From a virus: DNA of 64,000 nt. Within the stretch, counting starts at the first letter, position 1. Each line of letters starts with the position of its first letter. The notes below the pieces were generated by a model, which did not search any database, had not been told where the DNA came from, and saw only the letters and a program-made list of their open reading frames with translations. Where the stretch lies: the IMG/VR virus record IMGVR_UViG_3300042691_026427, positions 85,249-149,248 of that record, one strand, 5' to 3'. Of this stretch, positions 23,404 to 41,953 are shown piece after piece. The translations under genes were made by a program, and so were the position numbers.

Positions 23404-23814
23404 TTATGTCAGGTCAGCAATCATAAACTCTTCATCGAAATATTGACGAACATCTGGAACCATTCCTTGACTTGTGTCAAATTGCCATTGCCCAATGACT
23501 TCTAGTATTTGATTGTAAATTGTCGAGTTGTCTGTGTATCTTACAAAATATGGATCATTGCCGTATAACAGATCAGCATCGTCCAAATAGTCAATAGGAT
23601 CGCCACCAAAGTATTCCGATAACCAACGAGCGTAGCATATGCCTACCATGTAGCTTTTTGCAGGATAGATCCATCCGATATCTTTTTCAGTAAAATATCT
23701 TACAGCATTATTTGTTATGTCATCAGACAGCACAATTTCTTTGGTATTGAGATCGTCATCAAACACTTGATTGATCCGATGATAAACTTCTTGTCGTATT
23801 TTCCATTCTTTCAT
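23404..23814 (-). CDS. Hypothetical protein, last gene of the radical SAM operon
   Basis: Overlaps the upstream rSAM gene; 'WIYPAKSY.V.ICYA.WL...DPYF..Y'. Confidence 0.75.
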   Translation of the reverse strand: MKEWKIRQEVYHRINQVFDDDLNTKEIVLSDDITNNAVRYFTEKDIGWIYPAKSYMVGICYARWLSEYFGGDPIDYLDDADLLYGNDPYFVRYTDNSTIYNQILEVIGQWQFDTSQGMVPDVRQYFDEEFMIADLT

Positions 23815-24724
23815 TTTTGTACCAGTTTATTAAATTGTAATAACCATTACAACTATTGTCAAGATCCTTAACATACCTATAGTGCTCAGTTAAGCACCCG
23901 CCAAAGTAATCACAAGTGCGGCAAACATCACTGACATTAGCTTGTTTTTCTTTCTTAGTCCATTTAATGTAGTCATCAAATGAATCAAGTCCTAGAAAGT
24001 ATTCTCTATCGTTAAGATCAAATTCAAGAACACCAAAGTTACCATTAGGAGTTATATAAACATGATCATCACTGAATGCATTTCGTTGCTTGTTTATCAC
24101 ATCTTCTATATAGTATTCATTAATAAATTCAAACTGTTTAGGTATTGAAGATGCTATCCATTTTTTAACAAATTTTTCGTAATCAGCATGGCTAACATTG
24201 TAGCAGTTGGCCTGATTAATACTATAAGGTTTTATCTCAACACTTTCGACACTTGAACATAAATTCATAGATTCAATTAACTCATCTACATTCATTTTCA
24301 ATACTTCAGGACTTGCCAATACTAACACTGCAATAGGCACAGGACTCATTAACATATTTTGATAAACTCGATCATGCTTTTCACGAGCTGACCAATCGTA
24401 ACTAACACTTAGATAAAAGTCATCTTCGTAAAATCCCTCATGTAACATTGAAAAATTAGTAATAACATTAATCTTTCCTTGATAATGTTTACGAATAACA
24501 TCACGCATTGCATAGAAGTAATCTTTTTTTAGAGCACCAATTTCACCGCCATATAAATCTATATGGCCTATCTCAGGTATTTGAGCCAATAGGCTATCTA
24601 ACTTATCTAAGTCTATTTTATTAGTATCGGCAAGTTGCTGTTCAGTAAGATAACAGAAGTCACATCTAAAATTACAAAAATAACTAGGATTGATCGAAAC
24701 GGTAATAGGCTTATTCATGTTCAT
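23759..24724 (-). CDS. Radical SAM enzyme with C-terminal Cys cluster (SPASM/twitch-like)
   Basis: CNFRCDFC, YGGEI, C-terminal CRTCDYFGGC...C. Confidence 0.9.
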   Translation of the reverse strand: MNMNKPITVSINPSYFCNFRCDFCYLTEQQLADTNKIDLDKLDSLLAQIPEIGHIDLYGGEIGALKKDYFYAMRDVIRKHYQGKINVITNFSMLHEGFYEDDFYLSVSYDWSAREKHDRVYQNMLMSPVPIAVLVLASPEVLKMNVDELIESMNLCSSVESVEIKPYSINQANCYNVSHADYEKFVKKWIASSIPKQFEFINEYYIEDVINKQRNAFSDDHVYITPNGNFGVLEFDLNDREYFLGLDSFDDYIKWTKKEKQANVSDVCRTCDYFGGCLTEHYRYVKDLDNSCNGYYNLINWYKNERMENTTRSLSSDQSSV

Positions 24725-25781
24725 TTACATAAGGTGTAGGATCTACTTTTCCAGTCAATCCGTTTGCTTCAATTATGAGAGGCGCTAGAGTTTTCATCTT
24801 AACACAATGAGCTTCTACCATATTGTGGTCTTTTAGATCTTTGATTGTTTTCTTGCAACCGTTGCATATTTGAAACATAGGGCAAGTCCAACAGCTCTGT
24901 TTTAAACTTTGTAATTCAGGTTGAAACTGTAAGGGAAATACTTTCTCCCCTTTCATTTCTTCTTCAAAGTTTATATTGTAGATCCGGTCATCACCAAATG
25001 CTCCGCAACTGTAATAATCGCCTGTAGGCTGCAAGGTTCTTATACCACTATCGCACGATCTGTTCTGAGGACAACTTGTGGCATATCCGTTCAAACGATT
25101 TACCATTTGTTTTGTGTTAAATTCCCATTCAGTTAACCCTTGTTGCCAAATTTTTACATATATTTCGTATATGTCAGCTAACATGTATGGTCTACCTTCT
25201 TGTCCCATAGTAATATTTTTAAATTTAACTGGAGGGCCACTGCTAAATGCATAATTGAGTTTACATTCAACATTCATTTCTTTTGCCAGCTCTACATTCT
25301 TAATTGCAAGATGTTGATTCTCTTCTGTAATTACTGTGATAAAATCAGGACGATATCCTATGCGCTCTAGCATCATATTGCTGACTGCCCAAAAGTCCTC
25401 TTCGCTGAATTCTGTTAGGTCTCCCTTAAGACGGCCGCCGCCATATTGGAAACTAGTTGTGACTCCTAGGCGAGGATGCTTAAACAGAGATTCCCACTTG
25501 GTAGGATTTTTATAAAATGGCCACAGATTACTTGTAAAACTGATAGTAGCTGTCGAGCCTATATTGTCTAAGTGTTCAATAAGTTTCCAATAATAATCTG
25601 GTGGCATCATTAAGGGGTCGCCGCCATTGACAATTATAGTTCGAGTTTCTGGAAATCTTTCTAAGAAACGAAAGATATATTCATGATCAAGCTCTGCAGA
25701 CTTATCTTCAGTAATGTTCGTGCTAGAACAAAATGTGCATTTAAAATTGCACCGTTCAGTTGGCTTGATTATTAGATCCAT
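24711..25781 (-). CDS. Radical SAM/SPASM enzyme
   Basis: CNFKCTFC, NGGDP, 'CPQNRSC...YSC...CWTCPMFQICNGC...C'. Confidence 0.92.
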   Translation of the reverse strand: MDLIIKPTERCNFKCTFCSSTNITEDKSAELDHEYIFRFLERFPETRTIIVNGGDPLMMPPDYYWKLIEHLDNIGSTATISFTSNLWPFYKNPTKWESLFKHPRLGVTTSFQYGGGRLKGDLTEFSEEDFWAVSNMMLERIGYRPDFITVITEENQHLAIKNVELAKEMNVECKLNYAFSSGPPVKFKNITMGQEGRPYMLADIYEIYVKIWQQGLTEWEFNTKQMVNRLNGYATSCPQNRSCDSGIRTLQPTGDYYSCGAFGDDRIYNINFEEEMKGEKVFPLQFQPELQSLKQSCWTCPMFQICNGCKKTIKDLKDHNMVEAHCVKMKTLAPLIIEANGLTGKVDPTPYVNEHE

Positions 25782-27426
25782 ATTCTACTATTTCTTCAAA
25801 GAGGTTATTATAGATTAACTGCTCGTTTGAATTTATAAATTCTTCGATTATTTCTAATCTATTTTTTCCATTTATTTTTGTTATATCCTTAGCAGCAGTT
25901 TCGTAATTTAGTGTATCTTTTACATCGTTGTATATCTCTTTAAAAGAACTAATGTTATTCATAGCGGTCCAACAATATTCAAGAAATGTCCGAACATCTG
26001 GTAAAACATCTTTTAAGTTTTTCCAAAGTTTCCTGACTAATGTATCTGATGCAAAAGACATAATAAACATTTGAATGTTATCTTCTAATGTATAAGAGTT
26101 ACAACTGGATATAGTTTTAAAATAATTTTTACGATTTTTATAAAGGCCGCTTGAAATAAAAGAAATTCCTTCTTCTACGGTTTGTGTGAAAACTTCTACT
26201 AATTTTATTTTATTTAAAGCACAATAAAGATCATCAGTAATTTCACTATCTGGTAGAGCCATATAATCATAAAAACAATATTGAATATTATTGTTTTCTA
26301 AACTATTGTATATCACTAACAGTTCATCATAAAAATCATCCAATGTTGAACCCGGCATTGCTCTTATAAATTCCATAAAAGGAGATGATGCTCCAAAATT
26401 TTTTTCGCAGTATTCAATTAATTGTATTTTATCTATCTTGTTTAAATCAACACGTTTAGAAATCTTCATTGCATTATCACTTAAACTCTGAATACCTATA
26501 TTAGGAACTATCGATTTTCTCCCGTTTGACGTATCTGTTCCTGTTATTTTGAAAATCTCATCAATTATCTTAATTTTTTTATCTAGATTTGTTGTTTTAA
26601 ACAATGAAGAGTTTATAAATGACATTCCCAAGTCATATGCATATTTTAAGAAAAACAAGTCTCGTTCTAAGAATAATCCAAAGTTTGCATCAACATTATA
26701 AATTTGCTTATAACCTAATTTGTGCAGCACATCTATTTCTCTAATTACAATATCTTCAGGTTTCTTTAACACCTTAGTTCCAATGCCGCCACCCCATTCA
26801 CAATATGTACAATGAAATGGGCACCCTCTTGTAGTTTCTATTAATACGTGTGGAAATATTCCCTCAATATCGGCGTAGTCTTTTATCTTTTTTAAGTAAT
26901 CGAAATTTTCTTCATATGCACAAACATTGGGAAATTGCCATTCTCGGCATTTAGTACTTCTTAATTCAAAACTAATATCTTCTATGTTAGGTATTCCGTT
27001 ATTTTCAAAATAGGAATCTATAAAATCTTGCATGAATAGTTCGCCTGGTTTTGTTACCTGACAGAAATAATCATACATAGTTTTCTTTTTGAAGATATCT
27101 ATATCTTTCTGCCCTATTTGCGGACCGCCCAACACATTAACTATATTAGGGTTAATATTCTTTGCCAATCTTGCAACTTCATCTATGATATCAGTATTCC
27201 AAATGTAAGAACTGTATAAAATTATGTCAGCAGTATTAACTTCTTCCCATATTTCTTTACAACTTTGATATCTGTTATATTTGAATGGTGGCTCTAACCA
27301 TTCAACTAAATCTTTGTATTTTCCAAAATTATCATAGTATGATTTCATCCATATCCAAGTCACTGGACTGAATAGCTCAGTGTCAATGCTAGGAGGATTT
27401 ACAAAAGCTATTTTAATTTTTTTCAT
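25756..27426 (-). CDS. Cobalamin-binding (class B-like) radical SAM enzyme
   Basis: N-terminal B12-binding-like domain ('SSYIWN...NVLGGPQ'), 'IETTRGCPFHCTYCEWG', 'DANFG', 'IQS'. Confidence 0.88.
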   Translation of the reverse strand: MKKIKIAFVNPPSIDTELFSPVTWIWMKSYYDNFGKYKDLVEWLEPPFKYNRYQSCKEIWEEVNTADIILYSSYIWNTDIIDEVARLAKNINPNIVNVLGGPQIGQKDIDIFKKKTMYDYFCQVTKPGELFMQDFIDSYFENNGIPNIEDISFELRSTKCREWQFPNVCAYEENFDYLKKIKDYADIEGIFPHVLIETTRGCPFHCTYCEWGGGIGTKVLKKPEDIVIREIDVLHKLGYKQIYNVDANFGLFLERDLFFLKYAYDLGMSFINSSLFKTTNLDKKIKIIDEIFKITGTDTSNGRKSIVPNIGIQSLSDNAMKISKRVDLNKIDKIQLIEYCEKNFGASSPFMEFIRAMPGSTLDDFYDELLVIYNSLENNNIQYCFYDYMALPDSEITDDLYCALNKIKLVEVFTQTVEEGISFISSGLYKNRKNYFKTISSCNSYTLEDNIQMFIMSFASDTLVRKLWKNLKDVLPDVRTFLEYCWTAMNNISSFKEIYNDVKDTLNYETAAKDITKINGKNRLEIIEEFINSNEQLIYNNLFEEIVEYGSNNQAN

Positions 27427-28475
27427 TAGTTATATTTTAACACATTTTCTTCGTCGAGTCTATTAAAAAATTCTCTAAACAGACATTCGTCATTGCGTTC
27501 CAATTTTGCCCAATCAGCTTGCACAAAACATCTAAATGAGCAACGATCAAACCATTTACATCCCAAGCATTTGTTGCGTTCAAGATGCGCTTCTATAATA
27601 TTGCTGTTAGAAGAAAAATTAACCGGAGTTAGAAAATCTTCAGGCTCTGTCTTTACATAACGACAAGTTACTTCTCTACCTGACGGAAGTATAGTAGTCT
27701 TGTTCATCGAATAACAAGTCATCTTATTACGACTGTTTTCCAATAGATCTTTTACGGGATAAATGTTGGGATAATTCTTGGCAATATACATCATACAATC
27801 CAACATTTCCTGTTCACTAGGCATCATCTTATCTGCAGACAATTCTGGAACATAATAATCAAAATACAATGTATATTTTTTATACAGTGTATCTATAAAA
27901 AATTTGTCTTGGTTGCGTAATATCTTTCTAATAGCCGGAGCAGTGAGTACAAATCCAATAACAGTGATCCAATCTCCAAATATTTTTAAGTTATTTTCAA
28001 ATTGTAATGATCTGTTTAAATTAAAACCTCTGCCTGCAAAGTCATAAGATGTCGAGATATATGCATTATTTCCCACAGCTCGCATACGAGTTATTAAGTC
28101 AATTACACGTTGACTCTTGTTGAATATCAAATTAGTTACCCAATTAAATCTAACAATCTTGTTGTTGAGGTTAACCCAATCATTTATTTTTGAATAGAAT
28201 TCCCAATAAGATTCAAATGTGTTATCTGGCACTAGATCATTAAAAATCTCTCCACCCATGACGTTTACAATATGGGAATCCTTATCAGATGCCGTCATGA
28301 AATCTATAACTTGCTGAGCCTTATCAACAATACTGTTAAGTTCCATTCCTTCTGTAGAATCGTGATCTTGTCCGCAAAATGCACAACTTAGATTGCAAAA
28401 TTCAAATAGATGCAACTCGATTTCAGATGAATCGGGTACCTTATCTCTTAATACATGTTTTAGAAAATCACTCAT
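27426..28475 (-). CDS. Radical SAM enzyme with C-terminal Cys cluster
   Basis: CNLSCAFC, MGGEI, 'CLGCKWFDRCSFRC...C'. Confidence 0.9.
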   Translation of the reverse strand: MSDFLKHVLRDKVPDSSEIELHLFEFCNLSCAFCGQDHDSTEGMELNSIVDKAQQVIDFMTASDKDSHIVNVMGGEIFNDLVPDNTFESYWEFYSKINDWVNLNNKIVRFNWVTNLIFNKSQRVIDLITRMRAVGNNAYISTSYDFAGRGFNLNRSLQFENNLKIFGDWITVIGFVLTAPAIRKILRNQDKFFIDTLYKKYTLYFDYYVPELSADKMMPSEQEMLDCMMYIAKNYPNIYPVKDLLENSRNKMTCYSMNKTTILPSGREVTCRYVKTEPEDFLTPVNFSSNSNIIEAHLERNKCLGCKWFDRCSFRCFVQADWAKLERNDECLFREFFNRLDEENVLKYN

Positions 28476-28881
28476 ATATATGTTCCTGTGTCACGTTGTC
28501 TATATTAAAATCTTTTGATAATTCAAAACAATATTTAGGCGACGTCTTAACATGGACCACTGCCAGTTTAAATTCATTCGACCATTTCTCTTCTTTATTC
28601 ATAGACGACGTTAATATTTTAAACAACTCCTCCATAGAAGTTATTCCTAGTTCTTCTGTTAGATATAGAATATTATTATCTATTAATCTAAATTCCATTG
28701 TTAACGGATAGTAGTATCGACAATTGTACTCGTATATTACAATAACAGATACAGGAAACAAGGCTTTCTTAAAATATGAATACTCTGTTACTGCTTTGGC
28801 ATTATCTATAGCAGTAATAGTGCATGATATTTCTATGTCTGTATTTTTTCTAATAAACACATCATCTGTAGATTGTAACAT
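28468..28881 (-). CDS. Hypothetical protein in the rSAM operon
   Basis: Coupled start/stop overlaps on both sides. Confidence 0.65.
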   Translation of the reverse strand: MLQSTDDVFIRKNTDIEISCTITAIDNAKAVTEYSYFKKALFPVSVIVIYEYNCRYYYPLTMEFRLIDNNILYLTEELGITSMEELFKILTSSMNKEEKWSNEFKLAVVHVKTSPKYCFELSKDFNIDNVTQEHIYE

Positions 28882-29813
28882 TATCTCACCTCAAACATTT
28901 TATATATAGCGTTTGGATTATCACTGTGTTTATATGCCCAATAGACTTTGCTCACAAACGTGCAGATTGCATTTTTGCCCAACGAATCTGATAGATAGGT
29001 AATCCTACAATCATTGCCTAGATCTCTATATAGTAGTTCTTCATATTGTTCTGCATATATAAGAGAAACAGGTTCTAAATAACTATCAACGCCAGCAGCA
29101 TCTCTGTGAGCTATTGCATGATTATTAAATATTTTGATCATTTCTTTATAGTCAGGGAACAGTTTTCTTAATGCATGTTCGACATTAACATTGTTATGGT
29201 CAAAATCATAACCTAATATAAAATACCAGTCATTGTGATCTAGCATTTTTTTCGGAATATCAGAAAGTCGACTGGTTGAAAATTCTAAATCAGTTCCTGT
29301 AATATAATGAGCATTAAAAATGTCTCTCTTCATATCAGTTGCATACATTTGAAGTTCTTGAGATAACAATGACCAACAACAGAATTTAACGTATTCTAAT
29401 AGTTTAGTTTTTCCCAAACCGCTTAATAGAAAGTTTGGTAATAAAAACTCGTAACCTAAATTGTCAATTGACAATTCTTCTAGACAAGAAATCTTATTAT
29501 AATCTGTTTGGAAGATATCAACATATTTTTCTAAATTACTTTTTTCGTTATTCAAAGATAAATTTAAGAAGTATAACTCAAACAAATTGGTTAAGTTTTC
29601 TTTGCTGTTATCTTTTAATATATTTGAAAAAAAATCTCTAAAAATAGTTACAAACTGTTCTTCACTGCAATTAATCTTTATACTCTTTTCTTGGAATAAT
29701 AATGTTTGCCAAAAAGCATCACTATTCTTTCCCAAAAGGTTGTCAGCAGATATTGTTGAATCATAATCAGATTTACAACGTGTTAACCAAACATTGTTGA
29801 ATAATCTTATCAT
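28881..29813 (-). CDS. Hypothetical protein; paralog of 35663..36715
   Basis: Shared 'M..LF...(W/Y)L', '(Y/F)E(F/Y)LLP.(F/Y)L' and 'E.LL.RD' motifs. Confidence 0.7.
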   Translation of the reverse strand: MIRLFNNVWLTRCKSDYDSTISADNLLGKNSDAFWQTLLFQEKSIKINCSEEQFVTIFRDFFSNILKDNSKENLTNLFELYFLNLSLNNEKSNLEKYVDIFQTDYNKISCLEELSIDNLGYEFLLPNFLLSGLGKTKLLEYVKFCCWSLLSQELQMYATDMKRDIFNAHYITGTDLEFSTSRLSDIPKKMLDHNDWYFILGYDFDHNNVNVEHALRKLFPDYKEMIKIFNNHAIAHRDAAGVDSYLEPVSLIYAEQYEELLYRDLGNDCRITYLSDSLGKNAICTFVSKVYWAYKHSDNPNAIYKMFEVR

Positions 29814-30553
29814 AATTTACAAACTTCAGACAATAAAATATCTTTTGCCCATCTAATAGGAATATGTTTAGATACATCTCTATTAGATGCAATAACTAGT
29901 GAGTTATCATGAGCCAATAAGCATTCTTCTACAGTACGATCTGACATAGTTAATGTGCCAATATCTTTTTCAAAACTTAATGCTGCTACTAAATTTGCGT
30001 AATTGAATAGTTTATATAAGTTTTCTCCATATATATTTTCTACATACTGTTTTATTTCTAGGAAGTTTATGGGCACAGCTAGAGTATGTGTATCTCTTAG
30101 CATATCGTATCCCATTAATAACTGATCACTAGTAAATCTTATCAATGATCCCATAAAGAAATATGTAGTGTTCTGTTCAATTGACTTCACGGGCTTATCT
30201 ATTTCAAGGAGTGCAATATCGAACTGAGACGCACTGGTCATCCACTTTAAATATCCTTGGTCAATAATTTCGTATACTGCACTATCAGACCTAGATTTAT
30301 TACGACTGTCTAGAGTACTGTGACGAATTTTACAATAAGATACCCAGTCTGATCTAGAATAGCGTAATCCAGTAGCTAGTTGACCAAAATAAACAGACAA
30401 CATTCCACTTATCGACAAGTGTCCTGGCTCATAATTTCTATCACCTAATGTAAATCTATAAAATCCTGGAAAGAAATCCCCAGAAGATAAAATTACCTTT
30501 GCAAATTCTTCGTCTGTAATATCTCTAGCTAGATATATTAAATCAATTGCCAT
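29810..30553 (-). CDS. Hypothetical protein in the rSAM operon
   Basis: Overlap-coupled ORF, 247 aa. Confidence 0.7.
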   Translation of the reverse strand: MAIDLIYLARDITDEEFAKVILSSGDFFPGFYRFTLGDRNYEPGHLSISGMLSVYFGQLATGLRYSRSDWVSYCKIRHSTLDSRNKSRSDSAVYEIIDQGYLKWMTSASQFDIALLEIDKPVKSIEQNTTYFFMGSLIRFTSDQLLMGYDMLRDTHTLAVPINFLEIKQYVENIYGENLYKLFNYANLVAALSFEKDIGTLTMSDRTVEECLLAHDNSLVIASNRDVSKHIPIRWAKDILLSEVCKL

Positions 30554-33480: not shown

Positions 33481-34349
33481 AACTTCGGCTTGCTTGCCAC
33501 AATAAAATAATAGTTAAGTTTATTGTTTTTATGATTTTCTATAAAATATTCTTCAATGCCACTTTTAAGTTCCCACTGAGATCTCAATTCCCAATAAGGT
33601 ACCAAATCTTTAGTTCTATCTTCAGTAAAAATTAAGTTTAAGCCTGAGTTAACTATTGCAGTTTCGTATTCATTAATACCATGCATGGTAGATGCGTAAT
33701 GATCGTTAATAGGTTCAATAAATTCATTAAAATTATTAGTGTCTAGATTGTCGTTAAAACACCAAGTGGCAATTACAAAGCGGCCACCGGGTTCTAAAAC
33801 TCTGTATACTTCCTTAAACAACATGTCAAGTTCTAATGCATATTGAGTAACTTCGCAGCAATATGCATGACTAAAAGTAGCATCAGCATAGGGAATACTT
33901 AGAAAATTAGCCTGTCTAACTTCTGCTCTATCTTGTAAATTTCTTTTTTCTATTTCGTCTTTACAAAAATTAGTTTGATACTCAGTTAAATTTACACCAT
34001 CGACTTTGACATTTGAAAACTTTTCTATAATCCTAAACATGGTGCCTCCGCGTCCGCAGCCCAAGTCAATGACTCGTTGTGGTGTACCAAATAGTTTATC
34101 AAACTGTAAAAATGTTATTAAGTGACTAGTCAGTTTGTTTTCTTGTCGTTGGACTTCTGCTGTAATTTCTTCTGTAGTTGCAGTAGTAGCATCTATTTCA
34201 GTAGGGCCTAAGCCAAAGTGATGATGAACAAAACCATCAACTGCTTGTAGCAAGTTTCTATCATTCTTTTTATTGTTATAATAATCAAATACCGCAGTAC
34301 TAAGCGTGTTTTGAGTTTGGGTATGATCGTTGTTAAATTTTGTATACAT
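33477..34349 (-). CDS. SAM-dependent methyltransferase resembling geranyl diphosphate 2-C-methyltransferase
   Basis: 'VDGFVHHHFGLG', 'DLGCGRGGTM', 'INDHY...H...EY', 'PYWELR.....SGIE..FIE' match the GPPMT family signature as recalled. Confidence 0.8.
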   Translation of the reverse strand: MYTKFNNDHTQTQNTLSTAVFDYYNNKKNDRNLLQAVDGFVHHHFGLGPTEIDATTATTEEITAEVQRQENKLTSHLITFLQFDKLFGTPQRVIDLGCGRGGTMFRIIEKFSNVKVDGVNLTEYQTNFCKDEIEKRNLQDRAEVRQANFLSIPYADATFSHAYCCEVTQYALELDMLFKEVYRVLEPGGRFVIATWCFNDNLDTNNFNEFIEPINDHYASTMHGINEYETAIVNSGLNLIFTEDRTKDLVPYWELRSQWELKSGIEEYFIENHKNNKLNYYFIVASKPKL

Positions 34350-34970
34350 TTAAATTTCCAGTAGTGCTTTTGCGTCTGTTGCAAAAGAATATCGTGTGCC
34401 AATAAAAGGTTTTGCCCTATGCCAAACATCCGACGCCATTACTATCATAGTATACGGGATAGGAGCATATTTGTAAACCGGATTTAAATTTTCAGGCAAC
34501 CAAACATGTGATAACGGGTTTTCTTTTAAATCTTCATAGAATTCAAAACATCCGTTATCCATTCCAATAGTATCATCTTGTTTGATATATAATACTGTGG
34601 TCACGTCACCGATTTCATCTGCTCTTAAAAAAGGTTGCCAGTGACGATGTATACGTTGGCCTTGCCAACTGTTAGGAGTGTTGAGCCATGAATCCTTGTC
34701 TAGATAATAGTTCTGGCCTTTGCCAGCAAATCTAGGATGCACCGTATCTAGAAAATCAAAAATAATGCTGTCTATTACAGCTTCAAACATCTTCACTTCT
34801 GGTGTATTTGTTTCCCAGACGTTTAATTTGTTTTTTTCATCATCGGGTCCCAAAAAATACATTTGCGTATTGTCAATTAACGAATTACAAAATGGTTCTA
34901 TAAGTTCTTTGTAATCATTTAAATCATATATCATTGCATTAAAGTTAGGAACTTTAAATTTGTTTGTCAA
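34350..34970 (-). CDS. 2OG-Fe(II) oxygenase-like protein
   Basis: 'IHRH...TVLYI...GCFEF...WHRAKPF.G.RYSFA' double-stranded beta-helix pattern. Confidence 0.75.
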   Translation of the reverse strand: MTNKFKVPNFNAMIYDLNDYKELIEPFCNSLIDNTQMYFLGPDDEKNKLNVWETNTPEVKMFEAVIDSIIFDFLDTVHPRFAGKGQNYYLDKDSWLNTPNSWQGQRIHRHWQPFLRADEIGDVTTVLYIKQDDTIGMDNGCFEFYEDLKENPLSHVWLPENLNPVYKYAPIPYTMIVMASDVWHRAKPFIGTRYSFATDAKALLEI

Positions 34971-35656
34971 TTTTGAACCTCATCAAATACAGTAGATTTC
35001 ATCAAGGGGTCGGCAGGATAGTAATATAACTTTAACTTCAATGGTTGATAGGTAGTTGCGTTATATGTCAAACCAAACACCTTCATAAAAGTAGTGTCTT
35101 TGCAAAATTCTTTAACAGATTCGATGAACGGAATTGGAAGATTATAAAAATTTGCAACTGTTTCAACATTTTGATGCATAAAATATAAATCTTTCTTTTC
35201 GGGATTAACGCTGATACCTTGTCCCCAGTGACTTAATATTTGACTTCCTGCAACTATCATCGGCTGTGTATGTTTCCACAGATCTAAATCATAAAATTTT
35301 GGAACCTGTTGTTTGCTATCTAAAAAATAATTGATACAATAATCGTCATGTGGTCTAACGATATTAATGTTAAATTTGTTGCAATCGATCCTTCCTCCGG
35401 AATATACAGCCATGAACTTGTGTTCGGTATAGTTTATACCATCTGCAGGTTGGAAACTAAATTGTTGCAATTTTTCTAAGTTCACACCTTCATTAAAGAT
35501 AGAACCCATAACATCAATATAGGCGAACAAATAATCGTCTGGAACTTTTTTAGAATTAAACAAGTTCTCTTCTACTTTGTTACCTACGATTGTTATCTCT
35601 TCGGCATGTTGATTTATTTCTTTGCTTATTTCTTTAAAAAAGTCAATACTATTCAT
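34967..35656 (-). CDS. Hypothetical protein, possibly ABBA/PT-barrel prenyltransferase-like
   Basis: Beta-hairpin-like motifs 'GISVNPEKKDLYF' and 'FGLTYN...LKLKLYYY'. The ORF is solid; the function is speculative. Confidence 0.5.
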   Translation of the reverse strand: MNSIDFFKEISKEINQHAEEITIVGNKVEENLFNSKKVPDDYLFAYIDVMGSIFNEGVNLEKLQQFSFQPADGINYTEHKFMAVYSGGRIDCNKFNINIVRPHDDYCINYFLDSKQQVPKFYDLDLWKHTQPMIVAGSQILSHWGQGISVNPEKKDLYFMHQNVETVANFYNLPIPFIESVKEFCKDTTFMKVFGLTYNATTYQPLKLKLYYYPADPLMKSTVFDEVQN

Positions 35657-35662
35657 AGTACA

Positions 35663-36715
35663 TTAGTAAAGTCTAAATGGAGCCAAATCTGCTGTTAAAT
35701 TTTGTCTCTTTTTTCTATAGCAATAAGTTGAAAATATTTGATTAGATTTTTCTCTAAATAATTCAAATGTATAAAGACACCCAAAGTTTCTATTGATGTC
35801 TCGATGTAGTAATCCTTCCCAATCTTCAGCCATAAGCATTTGGTTTACTTCAAACATATCTTCATTACCTGTATGATCGGGCACCCATATTCTTTCTAAG
35901 GAATGCCATTGATTAACAAGATTGTTGTAATCATAGTTAGAAGTAATGTAGGAAGGTTCTGCTGAGAAATTCTCATCAACCATCCAATTTAACGTTGAGC
36001 TGTTTTTCAATTGGTCTTCGACGTTACCTATTTCAAAGTTGCTGTCAGGGTCTATTACACCCATGTCTAAGAATCCAAACATCGTTTCTAATCTTAGTTG
36101 CTCCAACTCATCTCGCCAGTTGTCAATACTAATGATTCTAACACGGTCTAGTATTTCTTCTTTGCATAGACTTTCTTCACCATGATATAGATAGTCGGGC
36201 AAAAGATATTCGAACGAAACATCCTGTTTATTAATGACATTTCTTAAAAAATTAGAAACTGGTTGAGCATCGTATATAACTTTGAATTCTTCGAATGATT
36301 TCATCTTAAAAGTATCTCTTACCATTTGATGTCGCGTATCGGGTGCATTAACTTGTATATAGGATCTTACTCGCACACTTTCAACCATTGATTTATACAG
36401 GAGGTAAACATCTTGCTCTGAAGCATATTGAAATATACTTTTTGCATATTGTATTAACAATCTCTCAGTAACATCGGTTTTTAAATAGGCGATAAGTTTG
36501 TGATCAGCTTCGTACATATATTGCCAAAATTGTTCAACATCGTTTTCAAAATTGTTTGCCAATAACTCGTCAAATGTGCCAACTGACGGCAGTATACAAA
36601 TATCTGTTGGCATTGGAAAGAGATTGTATAAATCGGTTGCCATTAACATTTTGTAACCAATACTGTCGAATTTATAATCAAATTCTAAATAAGCTCTTTT
36701 AAATAAGTGAAACAT
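35663..36715 (-). CDS. Hypothetical protein (350 aa); paralog of 28881..29813
   Basis: ATG at 36715 overlaps the upstream TAA (TAATG); starts MFHLFKRAYL. Confidence 0.75.
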   Translation of the reverse strand: MFHLFKRAYLEFDYKFDSIGYKMLMATDLYNLFPMPTDICILPSVGTFDELLANNFENDVEQFWQYMYEADHKLIAYLKTDVTERLLIQYAKSIFQYASEQDVYLLYKSMVESVRVRSYIQVNAPDTRHQMVRDTFKMKSFEEFKVIYDAQPVSNFLRNVINKQDVSFEYLLPDYLYHGEESLCKEEILDRVRIISIDNWRDELEQLRLETMFGFLDMGVIDPDSNFEIGNVEDQLKNSSTLNWMVDENFSAEPSYITSNYDYNNLVNQWHSLERIWVPDHTGNEDMFEVNQMLMAEDWEGLLHRDINRNFGCLYTFELFREKSNQIFSTYCYRKKRQNLTADLAPFRLY

Positions 36716-37377
36716 TATCTTCTTCCTCTTGATCCGTGGCAATTATTATGGCACGATGAATGACACACACGTAAATCAACTGTTCCTATTGAACCTCTTA
36801 GTGCAGTAACTGCGGCAGCTAAATTAGTATAAAAATTGTTGATATTGGCTGCAGAAATAGTAGCATTTGTACTTGGTTCAGATGATACGAACCCTACAGA
36901 TTGCAAATAATTATTATTAAGATGGGCTTGGCCATAAGTTAATAAAACTGTTCCGGAGAAAAAGGGGATGTTTGCATTGTCTGACGGTACGCCAGTTTGA
37001 GTATATTGACCGTTAAAATATTGAGTATAATAAAGGCCCCAAACAGCTGGACGTAATCTAGTAGTAGCATTGGCAAATGCTTTGCACATATTAACAATTA
37101 AACTGGCGTTTATTGTCAAACCGGATGCTCCTGAACCAGGTAGATTAGAAGTCGTTGGATATGCGTATGTATTCGTACCTAACTCACTTAACCTTGCAGA
37201 GAGGTATGCTCCTGTCCAGCCGATAACAGTACCGTTGTCCCACATTCTAACGTTAATTACTGGAACGTTGTAGTAGTGTATGCTTCCACTAGGGTCCATT
37301 CGCGAGGTATTCATCACTGTTGCAATAAAGTCATTAACTACGCTGGCTTTGGTTATAACTTGTCCTGTAGATGCCAT
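36715..37377 (-). CDS. Candidate substrate of the rSAM cluster: virion-like protein with C-terminal CHSSCHNNCHGSRGRR
   Basis: S/T/N/G/A-rich body with three 'I.(A/K)..+.N' repeats, then (CHxx)3-RGRR; sits between rSAM genes. Confidence 0.7.
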   Translation of the reverse strand: MASTGQVITKASVVNDFIATVMNTSRMDPSGSIHYYNVPVINVRMWDNGTVIGWTGAYLSARLSELGTNTYAYPTTSNLPGSGASGLTINASLIVNMCKAFANATTRLRPAVWGLYYTQYFNGQYTQTGVPSDNANIPFFSGTVLLTYGQAHLNNNYLQSVGFVSSEPSTNATISAANINNFYTNLAAAVTALRGSIGTVDLRVCHSSCHNNCHGSRGRR

Positions 37378-37390
37378 TTATCCGTTCCTT

Positions 37391-38392
37391 TTATTTAATA
37401 TCCAAAAAACAACCCATGTTAAAATCTCTTGCTATAGGAAAATACCCTTTTCCCATGCAGTGGGTTAAATTTTTACAATTGACACATTTGTCTAGTATCA
37501 CGTTATTTATATCATCTATACTGCTGTAAGTTTTAATAAAACCTTCGTAATTTGGAGTCAGCACTCTAAATCGAGGATTATCTATAAAAACGTATTCATC
37601 AAAAGGAATAATAGGAGTTAAAAAAATATCACCCGGTGACCCTAAAAAAGTAAATGCAGGTTTTCGCAACAGTGTTCTGTCGTTGTATTGTTTTGTTGCA
37701 TTCTCTGTACCTAAATAATGATCAGTTATGTCATGTATGGTTCTAATGCTTTCTTGCAACATGTTTGTTTTTTTCTCCAAACTTATATCTGGATTATACA
37801 AAAATGTAAAATTTAGTTCAATTATCTCATCATCGGATAAAAAATCTAACATTTGGTTTAGTTTAACTTTTTCCTTATCGGACAATGTAAATCCGGTATT
37901 GATTGCCAAGTTGATTATAACATCATCGCCGTATGTTTCTTTAATCTTTGCAATTCTAGATTTTATTGTTATTTGATAGTTTATGTCAAACAGTTTTGCT
38001 ATCAATAGATTGACCTGCAATTCAATTTTGGCCAATGGATTATTGTTTTTTACAATTTTAAAAAATTCTGGATCAAACCCTGTTTCTAACGTAGATGCCA
38101 CACCCACATACTCAAACAATGAAACTGTTTCTGCAAATTCTGCATTTTCAAACAGTTTGTAATTGTCCTTGTTATCAAATATATCAGTTGGCAATAGATA
38201 ACAAGTTTCCAATTCATAACCGTTTTTCAACAAGTCTTTGGCCAACGATAACGAAGATGTAAAATCGTTGTAATTATTTTTAGTTCTGTTGTAAAAACAT
38301 CCCCGGCAATCCATGGAACAGTCATTCAATACCAGCATTCTAAATTCTGCCAGTTTGTATGGGTCACCATATCTTTCGTAGGAATTATACAT
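37391..38392 (-). CDS. Divergent radical SAM protein (PTD in place of GGE) with C-terminal Cys cluster
   Basis: CSMDCRGC, 'LLPTDIF', 'CVNCKNLTHC...C'. Confidence 0.8.
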   Translation of the reverse strand: MYNSYERYGDPYKLAEFRMLVLNDCSMDCRGCFYNRTKNNYNDFTSSLSLAKDLLKNGYELETCYLLPTDIFDNKDNYKLFENAEFAETVSLFEYVGVASTLETGFDPEFFKIVKNNNPLAKIELQVNLLIAKLFDINYQITIKSRIAKIKETYGDDVIINLAINTGFTLSDKEKVKLNQMLDFLSDDEIIELNFTFLYNPDISLEKKTNMLQESIRTIHDITDHYLGTENATKQYNDRTLLRKPAFTFLGSPGDIFLTPIIPFDEYVFIDNPRFRVLTPNYEGFIKTYSSIDDINNVILDKCVNCKNLTHCMGKGYFPIARDFNMGCFLDIK

Positions 38393-39440
38393 GATGTACA
38401 GCCTTGATAGGAATTGTAATTCTCTTTGGCTTTGCCAATGCTTTCATCAAACTTTTCGGTGCTCCGCATATATCGTCCTGCCATTCTAGTTGATGACAAT
38501 CGCTGTTGCAGTATTCAAATACTTCGCAAGTATAACATCTAGGATCCCTAGCTCTTTCGCAAGAAATGTTTTCTAATCTCTGGGGACTTGTTAACAAAGA
38601 GGCAATGTCATCATCAATGTGGCCAAATTGATGTTCTGGGGCGCTATTGGGGCAACCAGATATAGTTCCATCAGCATTTAGGGTAAACAGCTTTTCTTCA
38701 CAGTCCCTGCAAAATGTAGCGCCATTGGTAAGTCCAATTTCAAATTTAGCATAGATGCTTTCCATAAATTCGTTACTGAACCATGACCTTGCGTCATGCT
38801 CTACTATCTGATGGTGCATCTTTAAAAACCACTGATCTTGTTCTAAGTTTGTGGGAAATATATGCAAATTTTCTCTTGCGCTGCCGTTCATAGTGAGACG
38901 CTCAAGTGCTAGATCAGTAACGCCTAAATCTCTTATCCATTCCAGCAGATCAATAGGTTCCATGGCAACGGTGCCTCGGGTAACACTGACAAACAGTTTG
39001 ACCTCAACTCCTAGATCAATTAGGGTCTGCAGATTCTTTCGCCATAAGTCGTATTGTTTAGGACTGGCAAATCTTATGTCTGGATCCCAGCTAGTTCCTA
39101 TGCGGCCTCCCAATGGCCCCATGATAAAATCAATCTTGTCCTGTGTTAACTTATAAGTTAAGTTGGTAGTGACACCCCAGCTGCGACTAGCCCATAATTC
39201 CTGGCATTGATCATACACATACTGCATCGATGATATATCTGCTAAAAAGGGTTCGCCGCCGTGAAACTCTAAATGTACATGGGGCGCACTAGCTGTTTCA
39301 ACATGTAGACGTTTAAGCCAATCGGCAACCTTTACATGATCCCAATATATCTTTGCGCCTTTGCTGCCGCTAGTAAAACAGTGCAGGCAATTGAGATTAC
39401 AGGTTTCTGTAGTCTTGAGGTAAATCATTAATTCTTTCAT
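38385..39440 (-). CDS. Radical SAM/SPASM enzyme
   Basis: CNLNCLHC, FHGGEP, 'CRDC...GCPN...CYTCEVFEYCNSDC...C'. Confidence 0.93.
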   Translation of the reverse strand: MKELMIYLKTTETCNLNCLHCFTSGSKGAKIYWDHVKVADWLKRLHVETASAPHVHLEFHGGEPFLADISSMQYVYDQCQELWASRSWGVTTNLTYKLTQDKIDFIMGPLGGRIGTSWDPDIRFASPKQYDLWRKNLQTLIDLGVEVKLFVSVTRGTVAMEPIDLLEWIRDLGVTDLALERLTMNGSARENLHIFPTNLEQDQWFLKMHHQIVEHDARSWFSNEFMESIYAKFEIGLTNGATFCRDCEEKLFTLNADGTISGCPNSAPEHQFGHIDDDIASLLTSPQRLENISCERARDPRCYTCEVFEYCNSDCHQLEWQDDICGAPKSLMKALAKPKRITIPIKAVHHV

Positions 39441-39448
39441 CAGAATAT

Positions 39449-39919
39449 TTAATAGCCTACGCTAAGGGCCCAAGTATTTTGTACACTGCTGACTCGATGT
39501 AGATAGCCCCGTGGTATTATCACATGCTGACCCGGATGCAATACAACCTTTTTATTTCGAATGTAAACTGTCTTTCGACCCTTTATTACATGCAGTAATA
39601 CATTTACATCGTCTTTGTGCCAATCAAAACTGTAGCCAAATTTTTGATTGACAAATAGGTGTATGTTTTTAAAATTTATCTTGTTAAAACAAGAACTGAC
39701 AGCGTGATCTGTTTCAAGGCCTTCAACTTTTATCACAGGATAGGATTTATGCTGTTCTATCCATTGAGAAAAAGTAAAAAAATCTTTAACTATGCAATCA
39801 CTGTGTTTATAGTCAGGGTGACCTATAACTTTTATTAAACCCTGTTCATACTTGGAATAATCTAACAGCTGATCGGCCAGTAATTTACTTACTGTCTTGG
39901 TCAGGCAGTGGTCCGCCAT
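39449..39919 (-). CDS. JmjC/cupin-type oxygenase
   Basis: 'FDWHKDDVNVLLHVIKGRK...L.PGQ...IPRG.LHRV' gives an HxD...H triad. Confidence 0.8.
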   Translation of the reverse strand: MADHCLTKTVSKLLADQLLDYSKYEQGLIKVIGHPDYKHSDCIVKDFFTFSQWIEQHKSYPVIKVEGLETDHAVSSCFNKINFKNIHLFVNQKFGYSFDWHKDDVNVLLHVIKGRKTVYIRNKKVVLHPGQHVIIPRGYLHRVSSVQNTWALSVGY

Positions 39920-40757: not shown

Positions 40758-40788
40758 AATGTTTTTATTTAGCGAACAACTGGGTCAA

Positions 40789-41115: not shown

Positions 41116-41123
41116 GATAATCC

Positions 41124-41717: not shown

Positions 41718-41853
41718 AACAATGAACCTCCTTGTATATGGTTAATAAGTAATGATGTTATGACAGGTTTTAAACACAGTGTTGAACACACTAGTATAAC
41801 CCTACATCTTGCGGAACTGGACACACAAGTGTGTGTAATCCAGCATAGTGTTA

Positions 41854-41882: not shown

Positions 41883-41953
41883 GTGTGGATCTATCCACTC
41901 TTGGTAAAACCAAATCTAACACATACTAATATTTAACAAGAAACAACTTATCT

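What the first reader, a model, noticed from the sequence alone, without database searches (positions are those of the whole stretch)
23404..39919. 16.5-kb phage operon with eight radical SAM enzymes around a (CHxx)3 protein: candidate RiPP-like virion-protein hypermodification system
Seen: about 18 co-oriented genes with overlapping or abutting start/stop codons. Eight carry CxxxCxxC (23759, 24711, 25756, 27426, 30543, 32329, 37391, 38385), seven of them with SPASM/twitch-like C-terminal Cys clusters. The operon also holds two Fe/2OG-type oxygenases, a prenyl-diphosphate methyltransferase homolog, six unknown proteins and one non-enzymatic protein with a Cys/His-rich tail. Known: rSAM-SPASM enzymes install thioether, C-C cyclophane and epimer modifications on peptides. 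Inference: a phage-encoded post-translational assembly line, expressed late (TAAATA before 39440), that builds a heavily crosslinked, methylated, hydroxylated and possibly prenylated C-terminus on a structural protein. It could serve receptor binding, metal binding or host-ligand mimicry. No transporter or protease is visible, which argues against a secreted RiPP. I know of no characterised pathway with this composition.
Basis: partly seen in the sequence, partly recalled or inferred. Interest (0 to 1): 0.95.

Follow-up and report, generated by a model that had tools for sequence, protein, structure and literature searches.

The report
Phage radical-SAM virion-protein maturation cassette
A large phage carries eight radical-SAM enzymes around a small protein whose last 17 residues, (Cys-His-x-Ser)x3 then Arg-Gly-Arg-Arg, are nearly invariant in hundreds of phages; a relative sits in Agrobacterium phage virions, so this is probably an undescribed enzyme set that chemically matures a virion protein.

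Summary
There are 19 co-oriented, mostly overlapping minus-strand genes. Eight carry CxxxCxxC, and seven of those have C-terminal Cys clusters. The operon also holds a cobalamin-type radical SAM (rSAM) enzyme, a full-length geranyl-diphosphate C-methyltransferase relative, two Fe/2OG-type oxygenases, and a 220-aa protein ending VCHSSCHNNCHGSRGRR.

The cluster is not unique. It is an expanded form of a widespread, essentially phage-only cassette: cupin, rSAM/SPASM, CH-tailed protein, g10, rSAM g5, rSAM/SPASM g3, rSAM g2, g1.
- The CH-tailed family has 750 representatives at 50% identity.
- Bodies are 25-45% identical, but 204 of 229 tails match CH..CH..CH.SR.RR at the C-terminus.
- All 57 IMG/VR loci with enough flank carry 3-8 rSAM homologues.
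- The cassette occurs in Ralstonia phage RSL2, Burkholderia FLC6/S13 and Agrobacterium Atu_ph07.
- In published Atu_ph07 virion proteomics, only the CH-tailed homologue (gp170, 31.9 kDa) is in virions. It peaks in the top gel band.

Best reading (about 0.6): non-virion rSAM maturases crosslink or modify the invariant tail of a virion protein. No modification has been shown, and prenylation is unsupported. No paper found explains the cassette. The scan has not noted it on other DNA.

The parts
39449..39919 (-). g19: cupin / JmjC-like Fe(II)/2OG-type oxygenase. First gene of the conserved core. The start is uncertain, because a TAAATA lies only 5 nt upstream.
   Evidence: Pfam Cupin_2 1.5e-7 and JmjC_2 2.4e-3. 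H101-x-D103...H141 and K116 are at least 90% conserved in 27 orthologues. Orthologue found in 59 of 80 IMG/VR loci.
38385..39440 (-). g18: core rSAM/SPASM enzyme, usually directly upstream of the tail protein, or one gene removed where g17 intervenes, as here.
   Evidence: CNLNCLHC at residue 14 and 9 C-terminal Cys. SPASM TIGR04085 at 32 bits against a cut-off of 27; best named hit is PapB at 3e-13. 979 clusters at E<=1e-20.
37391..38392 (-). g17: divergent rSAM-like enzyme, accessory, a distant paralogue of g9.
   Evidence: CSMDCRGC at residue 25. PF04055 six-frame E 5.5e-3. g9~g17 at 3e-4. Present in few loci.
36715..37377 (-). g16: 220-aa CH-tailed protein, the candidate substrate and virion component. 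Tail is VCHSSCHNNCHGSRGRR-COOH. It has its own AAGGA ribosome-binding site after a 13-nt gap.
   Evidence: Family of 750 representatives. Tail logo. AF2 model pLDDT 81 with a disordered tail and no solved fold match. The Atu_ph07 orthologue gp170 is in virions.
35663..36715 (-). g15: about 350-aa protein of unknown function, translationally coupled to g16 by a TAATG overlap. Conserved but fast-evolving.
   Evidence: Alignment A2. phrog_36207 at 5e-16, function unknown. No Pfam, PDB or Atlas match.
34967..35656 (-). g14: unknown accessory protein. Travels with g13 and g12 here.
   Evidence: Orthologues in L003 and L008 and 8 IMG/VR loci. No family or PDB hit.
34350..34970 (-). g13: accessory PF13759-type 2OG-Fe(II) oxygenase.
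   Evidence: phrog_81 at 7e-9. hhalign 5e-5 to a PF13759 protein of L009.
33477..34349 (-). g12: accessory SAM methyltransferase, a full-length relative of geranyl-diphosphate 2-C-methyltransferase.
   Evidence: NF041943 at 4e-50, 171 bits against a cut-off of 400. PDB 3VC1 at 1.5e-36.
32329..33480 (-). g11: rSAM/SPASM, a paralogue of g18. Accessory.
   Evidence: g11~g18 27% identity, 2.5e-35. SPASM 28.7 bits; YhhB cyclophane maturase 4.5e-12.
31647..32366 (-). g10: core protein of unknown function. In compact cassettes it directly follows the tail protein.
   Evidence: Found in 62 of 80 loci. phrog_20767 at 2e-61, function unknown. AF2 pLDDT 93 with no solved fold match, best Z 5.0 over 56 residues.
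30543..31646 (-). g9: divergent rSAM enzyme. Expanded to five paralogues in a variant cassette.
   Evidence: CQWNCKGC at residue 28. Orthologues 42-74% identical in RSL2, L003-L009. Tandem-type loci.
28468..30553 (-). g8, g7, g6: three accessory proteins of unknown function. g7 is a weak paralogue of g15.
27426..28475 (-). g5: core rSAM with a seven-Cys SPASM-like C-terminus.
   Evidence: CNLSCAFC at residue 27. C254, C271, C303, C306, C312, C316 and C331 are at least 90% conserved. Found in 71 of 80 loci.
25756..27426 (-). g4: accessory cobalamin-type (class B) rSAM, probably a C-methyltransferase.
   Evidence: KedN5 family 3.5e-29; B12-binding 3e-5. Found in 17 of 80 loci.
24711..25781 (-). 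g3: core rSAM/SPASM, the most conserved gene of the cassette.
   Evidence: 61-77% identical to orthologues in RSL2, Atu_ph07, Phosso, pPa_SNUABM_DT01 and metagenomes. At least 1433 clusters at E<=1e-10. SPASM 27.8 bits.
23759..24724 (-). g2: core rSAM with a conserved four-Cys C-terminal cluster.
   Evidence: Found in 54 of 80 loci.
23404..23814 (-). g1: core 136-aa aromatic-rich protein of unknown function. Last gene of the cassette.
   Evidence: phrog_20737 at 5e-54, function unknown. Found in 45 of 80 loci. Conserved W, Y and C60.
21704..22714 (-). Probable support module: IscU-type scaffold plus two IscA-type Fe-S carriers. It lies just downstream of the cassette, beyond a NUMOD3 endonuclease gene.
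   Evidence: NifU_N 5.5e-51; Fe-S_biosyn 1.4e-19 and 4.5e-19.

Best explanation
The island is an expanded copy of a phage-specific maturation cassette. Its enzymes act in the infected cell and are not packaged. They are the core rSAM enzymes g18, g5, g3 and g2 (with g9 in many versions) and a JmjC-like oxygenase g19. The unknown proteins g10, g1 and g15 are assumed to help. Together they are proposed to modify the disordered, nearly invariant C-terminal tail (C-H-x-S/N)x3-R-G-R-R of the small alpha/beta protein g16, which then becomes part of the virion.

The conservation pattern is invariant Cys and His, a free middle residue, and Ser/Asn two residues after each His. From this, and from the nearest enzyme families, the most likely chemistry is radical crosslinking. 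Candidates are His-centred three-residue cyclophanes (His to the beta-carbon at +2) and/or Cys thioethers. Optional hydroxylation (g19, g13) and C-methylation (g4, g12) may be added in expanded versions such as this one. The matured tail may give an SDS- and heat-stable linkage or oligomer in the virion.

Shown: gene content, synteny, tail invariance, phage restriction, and virion presence of one orthologue. Inferred: that the tail is the substrate, the type of chemistry, and the structural role.
For: - Co-occurrence. All 80 IMG/VR loci recovered through the tail motif carry cassette genes except one truncated locus. All 57 with at least 8 kb downstream have 3-8 rSAM homologues. The commonest order is g19 g18 g16 g10 g5 (g4) g3 g2 g1. 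The same order holds in RSL2, Atu_ph07 and six metagenome contigs.
- Tail invariance. 204 of 229 members end CH..CH..CH.SR.RR. C and H are invariant. Position +2 after each His is S/N in 203, 193 and 204 of 204. Bodies are only 25-45% identical.
- Structure. The tail is disordered in a confident model, pLDDT below 50 for residues 209-220 against 81 overall. This is expected for an enzyme-accessible substrate.
- Enzyme conservation. g3 and g18 are unusually conserved for phage genes, at least 66-76% identical across the top 120 clusters. This fits an invariant substrate.
- Enzyme families. The nearest named relatives are peptide/protein maturases (PapB, DynA, YhhB, anSME, HxsB/C), and the SPASM domain is over its cut-off.
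- Proteomics. Atu_ph07 gp170 has 8 peptides and 35% coverage in virions and is most abundant in band 1 despite being 31.9 kDa. gp164-169, 171 and 172 are absent from the virion list (PMC6102473).
- Precedents. rSAM maturation of a whole protein with HxS repeats (the HXS defence, PMC13128918) and a His C2 to Lys C-beta cyclophane (HtkB, PMC11499958).
- Fe-S assembly genes lie beside the cassette.
- The family is essentially absent from 185,579 prokaryote species genomes. The only two hits are on short MAG contigs.
Against: - No mass shift or crosslink has been observed on any family member.
- The virion datum comes from one phage, and smearing across bands is common in that gel.
- All enzyme-family scores are far below the curated equivalog cut-offs, so the chemistry is only an analogy.
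- No enzyme has a recognisable RRE (RiPP precursor-recognition) domain.
- A (Cys-His)x3 motif could simply bind metal.
- The g12 GPP-methyltransferase relative and the class B rSAM are enzyme types that usually act on small molecules.
- RSL2 ORF068 is annotated only as hypothetical, not as a virion protein.
Confidence: 0.6

Rival explanations
1. Scaffold or cofactor route. The CH-tailed protein is a carrier on whose C-terminus the rSAM enzymes build a small redox cofactor, metallocluster or metabolite, as with PqqA/PQQ, MftA/mycofactocin or pearlin-type scaffolds. The product, not the protein, is the functional output.
For: An invariant core with a variable body is the pattern seen in cofactor precursors rather than in antibiotic RiPPs. 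Small-molecule-type enzymes are present: the GPP-methyltransferase relative g12, the class B rSAM g4 and 2OG oxygenases. Three Cys plus three His could hold a metal cluster.
Against: No protease or peptidase is present to release a product. The body is a folded 170-300-aa domain, not a short leader. The Atu_ph07 orthologue is itself in virions while the enzymes are not. g12 and g4 are accessory and absent from most cassettes.
Confidence: 0.15
2. Metal-binding structural protein with unrelated enzymes. The (Cys-His)x3 tail binds Zn, Fe or an Fe-S cluster. It may serve as an assembly or trimerisation element, or as an Fe-S or electron donor for the neighbouring rSAM enzymes. The real substrates of those enzymes would be the giant fibre proteins, glycans or lipids.
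For: Cys/His spacing at i, i+4, i+8 is typical of metal sites. The cassette usually sits next to very large fibre-like genes: 42 of 59 loci have an ORF of at least 700 aa upstream. Fe-S assembly genes are adjacent.
Against: Metal sites rarely need invariant Ser/Asn at +2 from each His and an invariant S-R-x-R-R end. The upstream giant genes are not detectably homologous between loci, whereas enzymes such as g3 stay 61-77% identical. This fits the invariant tail as the common substrate better.
Confidence: 0.15
3. Nucleic-acid or nucleotide modification. The rSAM enzymes hypermodify phage DNA or nucleotides, and the tail protein is a DNA-binding accessory through RGRR.
For: Phage rSAM enzymes are known in deazaguanine and thymidine hypermodification (PMC8989533, listed). 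DHFR and NUDIX genes are interspersed in some versions. The basic tail could bind DNA, as proposed for HxsA.
Against: No core gene resembles QueE/QueC, a glycosylase, a kinase or a transferase of known DNA-modification pathways. DHFR and NUDIX are sporadic inserts absent from the 80-locus consensus. The nearest enzyme families are peptide maturases.
Confidence: 0.03

Closest known systems
Bacterial HXS antiphage system (HxsA effector with five His-Xaa-Ser repeats matured by rSAM HxsB/HxsC plus HxsD; PMC13128918)
   Same: Several rSAM enzymes mature a whole folded protein of about 200 aa, not a short peptide, at His-x-Ser repeats. The modified HxsA motif S-H-R-S-S has the same register as C-H-x-S-C here. 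Small partner proteins of unknown fold are present. There is a basic, possibly DNA-binding context.
   Different: The phage enzymes score only about 30 bits on the HxsB/HxsC models, against cut-offs of 268-370. A Cys precedes every His. The repeats sit at the extreme C-terminus with an RGRR end. No signal peptide or peptidoglycan-binding domain was detected. The system is encoded by phages and the protein is virion-associated, not a host periplasmic defence effector.
Three-residue cyclophane (triceptide) maturases: YhhB, XyeB, FxsB, HaaB and HtkB rSAM/SPASM enzymes
   Same: The substrate logic is aromatic residue, free residue, conserved residue at +2, repeated three times. His is a proven ring donor (HtkB links His C2 to Lys C-beta; PMC11499958). 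g11's best named hit is YhhB (4.5e-12).
   Different: Scores are far below family cut-offs. The substrate is a virion-associated protein rather than a secreted peptide. There is no protease or exporter, and four to eight rSAM enzymes instead of one.
Ranthipeptide/SCIFF and PapB-type thioether maturases, and QhpD, which crosslinks the QhpC subunit
   Same: SPASM rSAM enzymes act on regularly spaced Cys (Cx3 repeats). g18's best named hit is PapB (3e-13). SCIFF cores are likewise highly conserved. QhpD is a precedent for multiple thioethers in a protein subunit.
   Different: There are no Asp/Glu acceptors at +4. Membership scores are not met. The context is a phage virion.
Anaerobic sulfatase-maturating enzyme (anSME)
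   Same: g3, g11 and g18 all hit TIGR03942 at 1e-10 to 1e-12 over their full length. The last repeat, C-H-G-S-R, loosely fits the C-x-(P/A)-x-R register, so a formylglycine aldehyde that could crosslink is conceivable.
   Different: The third position is Gly/Ser rather than Pro/Ala. There is no sulfatase domain. Scores of 39-47 bits fall far below the 349-bit cut-off.
Earlier remarks on 'unusually many radical SAM genes' in phage genomes (CP220/CPt10 PMC2853527; marine T4-like EVGs PMC5332604; Aeromonas 332-Vera PMC12390700; FLC6, S13)
   Same: Multi-rSAM clusters sit within or beside structural genes, sometimes with phage IscU or A-type carriers.
   Different: Those papers only list the genes. 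None identifies the conserved CH-tailed protein or proposes a substrate. It was not tested here whether the CP220, EVG and 332-Vera clusters are the same cassette.

Membership tests
Radical SAM superfamily (eight enzymes) | CxxxCxxC cluster-binding motif in a PF04055 core | tested here: met
   The motif is in all eight. PF04055 hits all eight at E<0.01. Only g3 and g11 reach the gathering score.
SPASM-domain rSAM enzymes | C-terminal seven-Cys auxiliary-cluster domain (TIGR04085, cut-off 27 bits) | tested here: met
   g3 27.8, g11 28.7, g18 32.1 bits. g5 has seven conserved C-terminal Cys but no model hit. g2, g9 and g17 have four Cys, twitch-like, and were not scored by a model.
HXS (His-Xaa-Ser) system | HxsB and HxsC equivalogs (TIGR03978, TIGR03977) | tested here: not met
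   Best scores are 30.6 bits (g18 against HxsB, cut-off 370) and 30.6 bits (g3 against HxsC, cut-off 268).
HXS (His-Xaa-Ser) system | Substrate with tandem His-x-Ser repeats | tested here: met
   Three H-x-[S/N] units, with S/N at +2 in at least 193 of 204 tails. Unlike HxsA, each is preceded by Cys and the array is C-terminal.
Triceptide 3-residue cyclophane maturases (YhhB NF041707, FxsB, GrrM) | Enzyme reaches the family cut-off | tested here: not met
   g11 scores 45.6 bits against a cut-off of 445; the others are lower.
PapB ranthipeptide maturase (NF047865) | Enzyme reaches the cut-off; Cx3(D/E) acceptor motif in the substrate | tested here: not met
   g18 scores 49.7 bits against 340. 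The tail has no Asp/Glu at +4.
anSME (TIGR03942) | Enzyme reaches the cut-off; C/S-x-P/A-x-R substrate motif | tested here: not met
   39.6-47.4 bits against 349. The last repeat is C-H-[G/S]-S-R, so the Pro/Ala position is not kept.
Geranyl-diphosphate 2-C-methyltransferase (NF041943) | Equivalog score of at least 400 bits; adjacent terpene synthase | tested here: not met
   g12 scores 171 bits. It is a full-length relative of PDB 3VC1 (1.5e-36). No terpene synthase or prenyltransferase hit occurs in the island. It is a relative, not an equivalog.
Class B cobalamin-dependent rSAM methylases (KedN5 NF033712) | N-terminal B12-binding domain plus rSAM core | tested here: inconclusive
   g4 scores 101.5 bits against a cut-off of 700. 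B12-binding scores 24.1 against 32.1. The architecture fits.
Fe(II)/2OG (JmjC/cupin) oxygenases | H-x-D/E...H facial triad in a double-stranded beta-helix | tested here: met
   g19 has H101, D103 and H141 at least 90% conserved, and Cupin_2 is over its cut-off. g13 matches phrog_81 and aligns to a PF13759 protein.
RiPP pathway in the strict sense | Short precursor with a leader recognised by an RRE domain, then proteolytic release and export of the core | tested here: not met
   The substrate candidate is a folded 170-300-aa protein. No RRE, protease or transporter family hit was found. The orthologue stays in virions. The system works like a RiPP maturation but is better called protein maturation.

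The most novel reading that the evidence does not exclude
Hundreds of large phages, across jumbo-phage lineages that include phiKZ-related RSL2 and T4-core Atu_ph07, depend on a dedicated cascade of four to eight rSAM enzymes. The cascade would install a new kind of crosslink (for example a Cys/His/Ser-derived tricyclic or aldehyde-bearing tail) on a virion protein. That tail would covalently staple the protein into the particle, or act as a warhead at the cell envelope during infection. It would be a phage-side counterpart of the rSAM-matured HxS effector of the bacterial HXS defence.
Probability: 0.3. Interest if true: 0.9.

Novelty: new variant of a known kind. Interest (0 to 1): 0.8.

Why it matters
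Several phage genome papers since 2010 have remarked on an unexplained excess of radical SAM genes. This analysis gives those genes a candidate substrate and a testable function. If confirmed, it would be the first virion protein shown to need a dedicated multi-rSAM maturation pathway, and it would carry new crosslink chemistry on an invariant 17-residue tag.

It would also imply that virion assembly in many environmental and plant-pathogen phages depends on Fe-S supply, SAM and low oxygen stress. It offers a compact tag-plus-enzyme set for protein engineering. It may also connect to the host HXS defence, which uses similar chemistry to block phage DNA entry.

Culturable models already exist: RSL2, FLC6, S13 and Atu_ph07.

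Tried and rejected
- Megablast of the island against 50,697 phage records gave no match.
- The g16 fold was searched with Foldseek against PDB (no hit at E<=0.001), with VIA-align wide (best Z 4.2) and in the Atlas (TM<0.3). BFVD returned only uncharacterised phage proteins.
- The g10 model (pLDDT 93) had no solved fold match. Foldseek's best E was 0.04, and VIA's best Z was 5.0 over 56 residues.
- g15 had no Pfam, PDB-profile or Atlas lead. PcfJ at 0.89 is below the usable level. The Atlas gave nothing for g10.
- g3 and g18 have no close solved relatives by sequence.
- Complex prediction of g18 with g16 gave no verdict (ipSAE 0.02). This counts neither for nor against binding.
- The ABBA-prenyltransferase idea for g14 found no supporting hit.
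- The T4 late promoter TATAAATA is not enriched.
- Contexts for the tail variant ending CHGS[I/L]: two look-ups gave only 1-kb contigs and one relative scan found nothing. A DNA pattern scan found one locus, L093/L094. It has g18, the tail protein, g10, g3 and a g4-like gene, but no detectable g19, g5, g2 or g1. With n=1 this is only a lead that those genes serve the S-R-G-R-R end.
- The upstream giant genes of the window have no homologues at E<=1e-10 in the other loci.
- Literature: the motif strings HGSRGRR, CHSSCHSSCH and SCHGSRGRR occur in no paper held. The jumbo-phage comparative review does not discuss the cassette.

Full report
**What is there**

The window is the right-hand 64 kb of a 149-kb IMG/VR virus record that CheckV rates 44% complete, so it is probably part of a jumbo phage. 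Around the finding lie several fibre-type genes:
- a collagen-like tail fibre;
- a 1607-aa protein with an Mtd_N domain;
- a 1278-aa protein with an endosialidase-type C-terminal domain;
- a phrog_5838 virion structural protein;
- a 1716-aa ORF.

A DNA ligase, an SleB-type cell-wall hydrolase and two tRNAs are also present.

Between 23404 and 39919 lie 19 minus-strand genes, here called g1 to g19. Their junctions range from a 56-nt overlap to a 13-nt gap. The stretch is AT-rich, GC 0.29-0.35 against 0.42-0.45 outside. The best-conserved genes (g18, g16, g3) are closest to the genome average.

- A six-frame PF04055 scan of the whole record finds exactly these eight and nothing else.
- Seven have 4-9 Cys in their last 130 residues.
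- The SPASM model is above its cut-off for g3, g11 and g18.
- g4 has the cobalamin-rSAM architecture (KedN5 family, 3.5e-29).
- g12 aligns over its full length with geranyl-diphosphate 2-C-methyltransferase. PDB 3VC1 scores 1.5e-36, against 2e-13 for the next methyltransferase family.
- g19 is a cupin with a conserved H-x-D...H triad and weak JmjC_2 similarity.
- g13 is a PF13759/phrog_81-type 2OG oxygenase.
- g16 ends VCHSSCHNNCHGSRGRR.
- No protease or transporter family appears.
- Directly downstream, beyond a NUMOD3 homing-endonuclease gene, are an IscU and two IscA-type carrier genes.

**The cluster is one instance of a widespread cassette**

The C-terminus of g16 matched a hypothetical protein of Ralstonia phage RSL2 and its Burkholderia relatives. 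In RSL2 that gene (ORF068, ending VCHSSCHTSCHGSRGRR) sits between a cupin plus rSAM pair and further rSAM genes.

Size of the families:
- A word-index search found 92 relatives of g16.
- A profile search of 1.84 billion representatives found 750 at E<=1e-3 and 427 at E<=1e-10. All are about 140-450 aa, with the match running to the C-terminus.
- g3 and g18 have at least 1433 and 979 clusters. Their top 120 are at least 76% and 66% identical.

Context of the cassette:
- Eight contexts from metagenomes, RSL2 and Atu_ph07, plus 80 IMG/VR loci, give a consensus order: g19 cupin, g18, tail protein, g10, g5, (g4), g3, g2, g1.
- Every one of the 57 IMG/VR loci with at least 8 kb downstream has 3-8 homologues of the window's rSAM genes (mode 4). 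The only locus with none is truncated.
- g3 is 58-65% identical in RSL2, RSF1, FLC6/8, S13, Atu_ph07, Sinorhizobium Phosso and Pseudomonas pPa_SNUABM_DT01.

The window's version is inflated in two ways:
- by paralogues: g11~g18 at 2.5e-35, g17~g9, g7~g15;
- by accessory genes: g4, g6-g8, and the g12-g13-g14 trio, which recurs only in L003 and L008.

A second architecture has two tandem 124-137-aa tail proteins and five g9-like paralogues. It accounts for 14 of the 80 loci.

A pattern scan of one genome for each of 185,579 prokaryote species gave only two hits, both on 3.6-5.4-kb MAG contigs. The system is therefore essentially phage-specific.

**The tail**

Of 229 family members, 204 end exactly CH..CH..CH.SR.RR. 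Cys and His never vary. The residue after His is free (S, A, T, N, G). The residue two after His is S or N in 203, 193 and 204 of the 204 matching tails. The end is S-R-[G/S]-R-R. Bodies share only 25-45% identity.

Variants are rare:
- an A or N in place of the last Ser;
- an inserted Gly;
- a four-repeat form;
- a small group ending CHGS[I/L] without the basic end.

The AlphaFold model of g16 is confident (pLDDT 81, pTM 0.74). It is an alpha/beta domain with a disordered tail, and it has no match among solved structures.

**Independent experimental hint**

In Agrobacterium phage Atu_ph07 the cassette maps as follows:
- gp172 = cupin (g19)
- gp171 = g18
- gp170 = tail protein (296 aa, ending VDFCHSSCHASCHNSRSRR)
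- gp169 = g10
- gp168 = g5
- gp165 = g3
- gp164 = g2

The published virion ESI-MS/MS table (PMC6102473, Table S5) lists gp170 with 8 unique peptides and 35% coverage. It was found in bands 1-9 and is most abundant in band 1. Band 1 is where 75-139-kDa proteins peak, while other roughly 30-kDa proteins peak in bands 7-8. None of gp164-169, 171 or 172 is listed.

So the tail protein is virion-associated, the enzymes are not, and the protein runs far above its mass after boiling in SDS. This is one data set from a smeary gel, and one other roughly 36-kDa protein behaves the same way. I treat it as support, not proof.

**Mechanism proposed**

The pattern aromatic residue, free residue, conserved small polar residue is the substrate logic of three-residue cyclophane maturases. 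His is a proven ring donor (HtkB, PMC11499958). Regularly spaced Cys is the logic of PapB/SCIFF-type thioether maturases.

The closest functional analogue is the bacterial HXS defence. There, two rSAM enzymes and a small partner mature a 214-aa protein at an S-H-R-S-S unit of its HxS repeats, with a +8 Da change (PMC13128918).

I therefore propose that the core rSAM enzymes install His- and/or Cys-based crosslinks in the three C-H-x-S units. The JmjC-like g19 may hydroxylate a tail residue. In this window g4, g12 and g13 may add methyl and hydroxyl groups.

All enzyme-family scores are far below curated cut-offs. The system works like these families but is a member of none.

The single locus with a CHGSI end keeps g18, g10, g3 and a g4-like gene. 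It lacks detectable g19, g5, g2 and g1. This hints at a division of labour between the repeats and the basic end, but it is a single case.

**Rivals**

- A cofactor or small-molecule route on a protein scaffold fits the invariant core and the small-molecule-type accessory enzymes. It lacks a releasing protease and conflicts with virion presence.
- A plain metal site with unrelated enzyme substrates is not excluded. It explains the invariant Ser/Asn and basic end poorly. It also does not explain why enzymes stay 61-77% identical while the neighbouring giant genes show no detectable homology.
- DNA modification has no positive support in the core.

**Regulation**

TATAAATA is not enriched. TAAATA, however, lies 10-14 nt upstream of nine same-strand starts. 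These include g18, g20, the 1716-aa ORF and the fibre-like ORF at the left edge of the window. It lies 20-30 nt upstream of g16 and three others. By my estimate about 0.1 copies would fall in the 10-14-nt position by chance. This suggests co-regulation with structural genes, but it does not prove late transcription.

g16 is the only cassette gene with a clear spacer and an AAGGA site. That fits a protein needed in larger amounts than its enzymes.

**Literature**

Several genome papers remark on unexplained multi-rSAM clusters: CP220/CPt10, marine T4-like genomes with IscU, Aeromonas 332-Vera, FLC6 and S13. None names the tail protein or a substrate. The jumbo-phage comparative review is silent on the cassette. 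The longer motif strings occur in no held paper. Earlier notes of this scan cover only this same genome.

**Verdict**

It is not supported in chemical detail, and prenylation is unsupported.

The novelty lies in the substrate family, its invariant tag, the unknown partner proteins and the virion context, within the known theme of rSAM peptide/protein maturation.

Noticed in passing
window 21704-22714 (-), with 22966-23343 (-): A phage-encoded Fe-S assembly trio lies directly downstream of the cassette: IscU/NifU_N at 5.5e-51 and two IscA-type carriers. A NUMOD3 homing-endonuclease-like gene separates it from the cassette. No IscS (PF00266) is found in the 149-kb record.
   Followed up: partly
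window-wide, e.g. 2798, 7865, 7958, 19263, 39451, 40771, 51841, 56401: TAAATA sits at a fixed 10-14 nt upstream of many start codons, both fibre genes and cassette genes. The T4-type TATAAATA is depleted. It may be a late-promoter-like or a translation-initiation element of this phage.
   Followed up: partly
L049, L052-L054, L056, L057, L060, L068, L089 (IMG/VR loci): A variant cassette has two tandem short (124-137 aa) CH-tailed proteins followed by five g9-like rSAM paralogues. g5 follows on either strand, and g1, g2 and g3 where present lie on the opposite strand. No g18 or g19 lies within 10 kb.
   Followed up: partly
L094 (G001:C1:10000-29999), tail protein at 12363-12947 (-): A tail variant ends ...YCHSSCHSSCHGSI-COOH without the RGRR end. 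Its locus keeps g18, g10, g3 and a 644-aa B12-rSAM but shows no cupin, g5, g2 or g1 homologue.
   Followed up: partly
window 33477-35656 (-): The GPP-methyltransferase relative g12 always travels with g13 (2OG oxygenase) and g14 (unknown) in the three loci that have it. g14 alone also recurs at the end of 8 other cassettes. The substrate of this sub-module is unexplained, and no terpene synthase or prenyltransferase was detected.
   Followed up: partly
window 10185-15008 (-) and 15336-19172 (-): A 1607-aa fibre-like protein starts with an Mtd_N (major tropism determinant N-terminal) domain and has beta-propeller repeats. A 1278-aa protein has an endosialidase-type C-terminal domain. HNH endonuclease genes lie between structural genes, for example at 19276-19797.
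   Followed up: no
window 39885-43476: About 3.6 kb lies between the cupin and the phrog_5838 virion protein. It holds g20 (unknown, GC 0.46), a 108-aa ORF, an SleB-type cell-wall hydrolase (41124-41717) and two plus-strand ORFs. It looks like an insertion compared with the compact layout in L008 and L009, where a protein of about 1000 aa directly precedes the cupin.
   Followed up: no
L002 (RSL2) 16527-17063; L006 17412-17855: A dihydrofolate reductase gene (RSL2) and a NUDIX gene (L006) are interspersed within some versions of the cassette. They are probably unrelated inserts.
   Followed up: no
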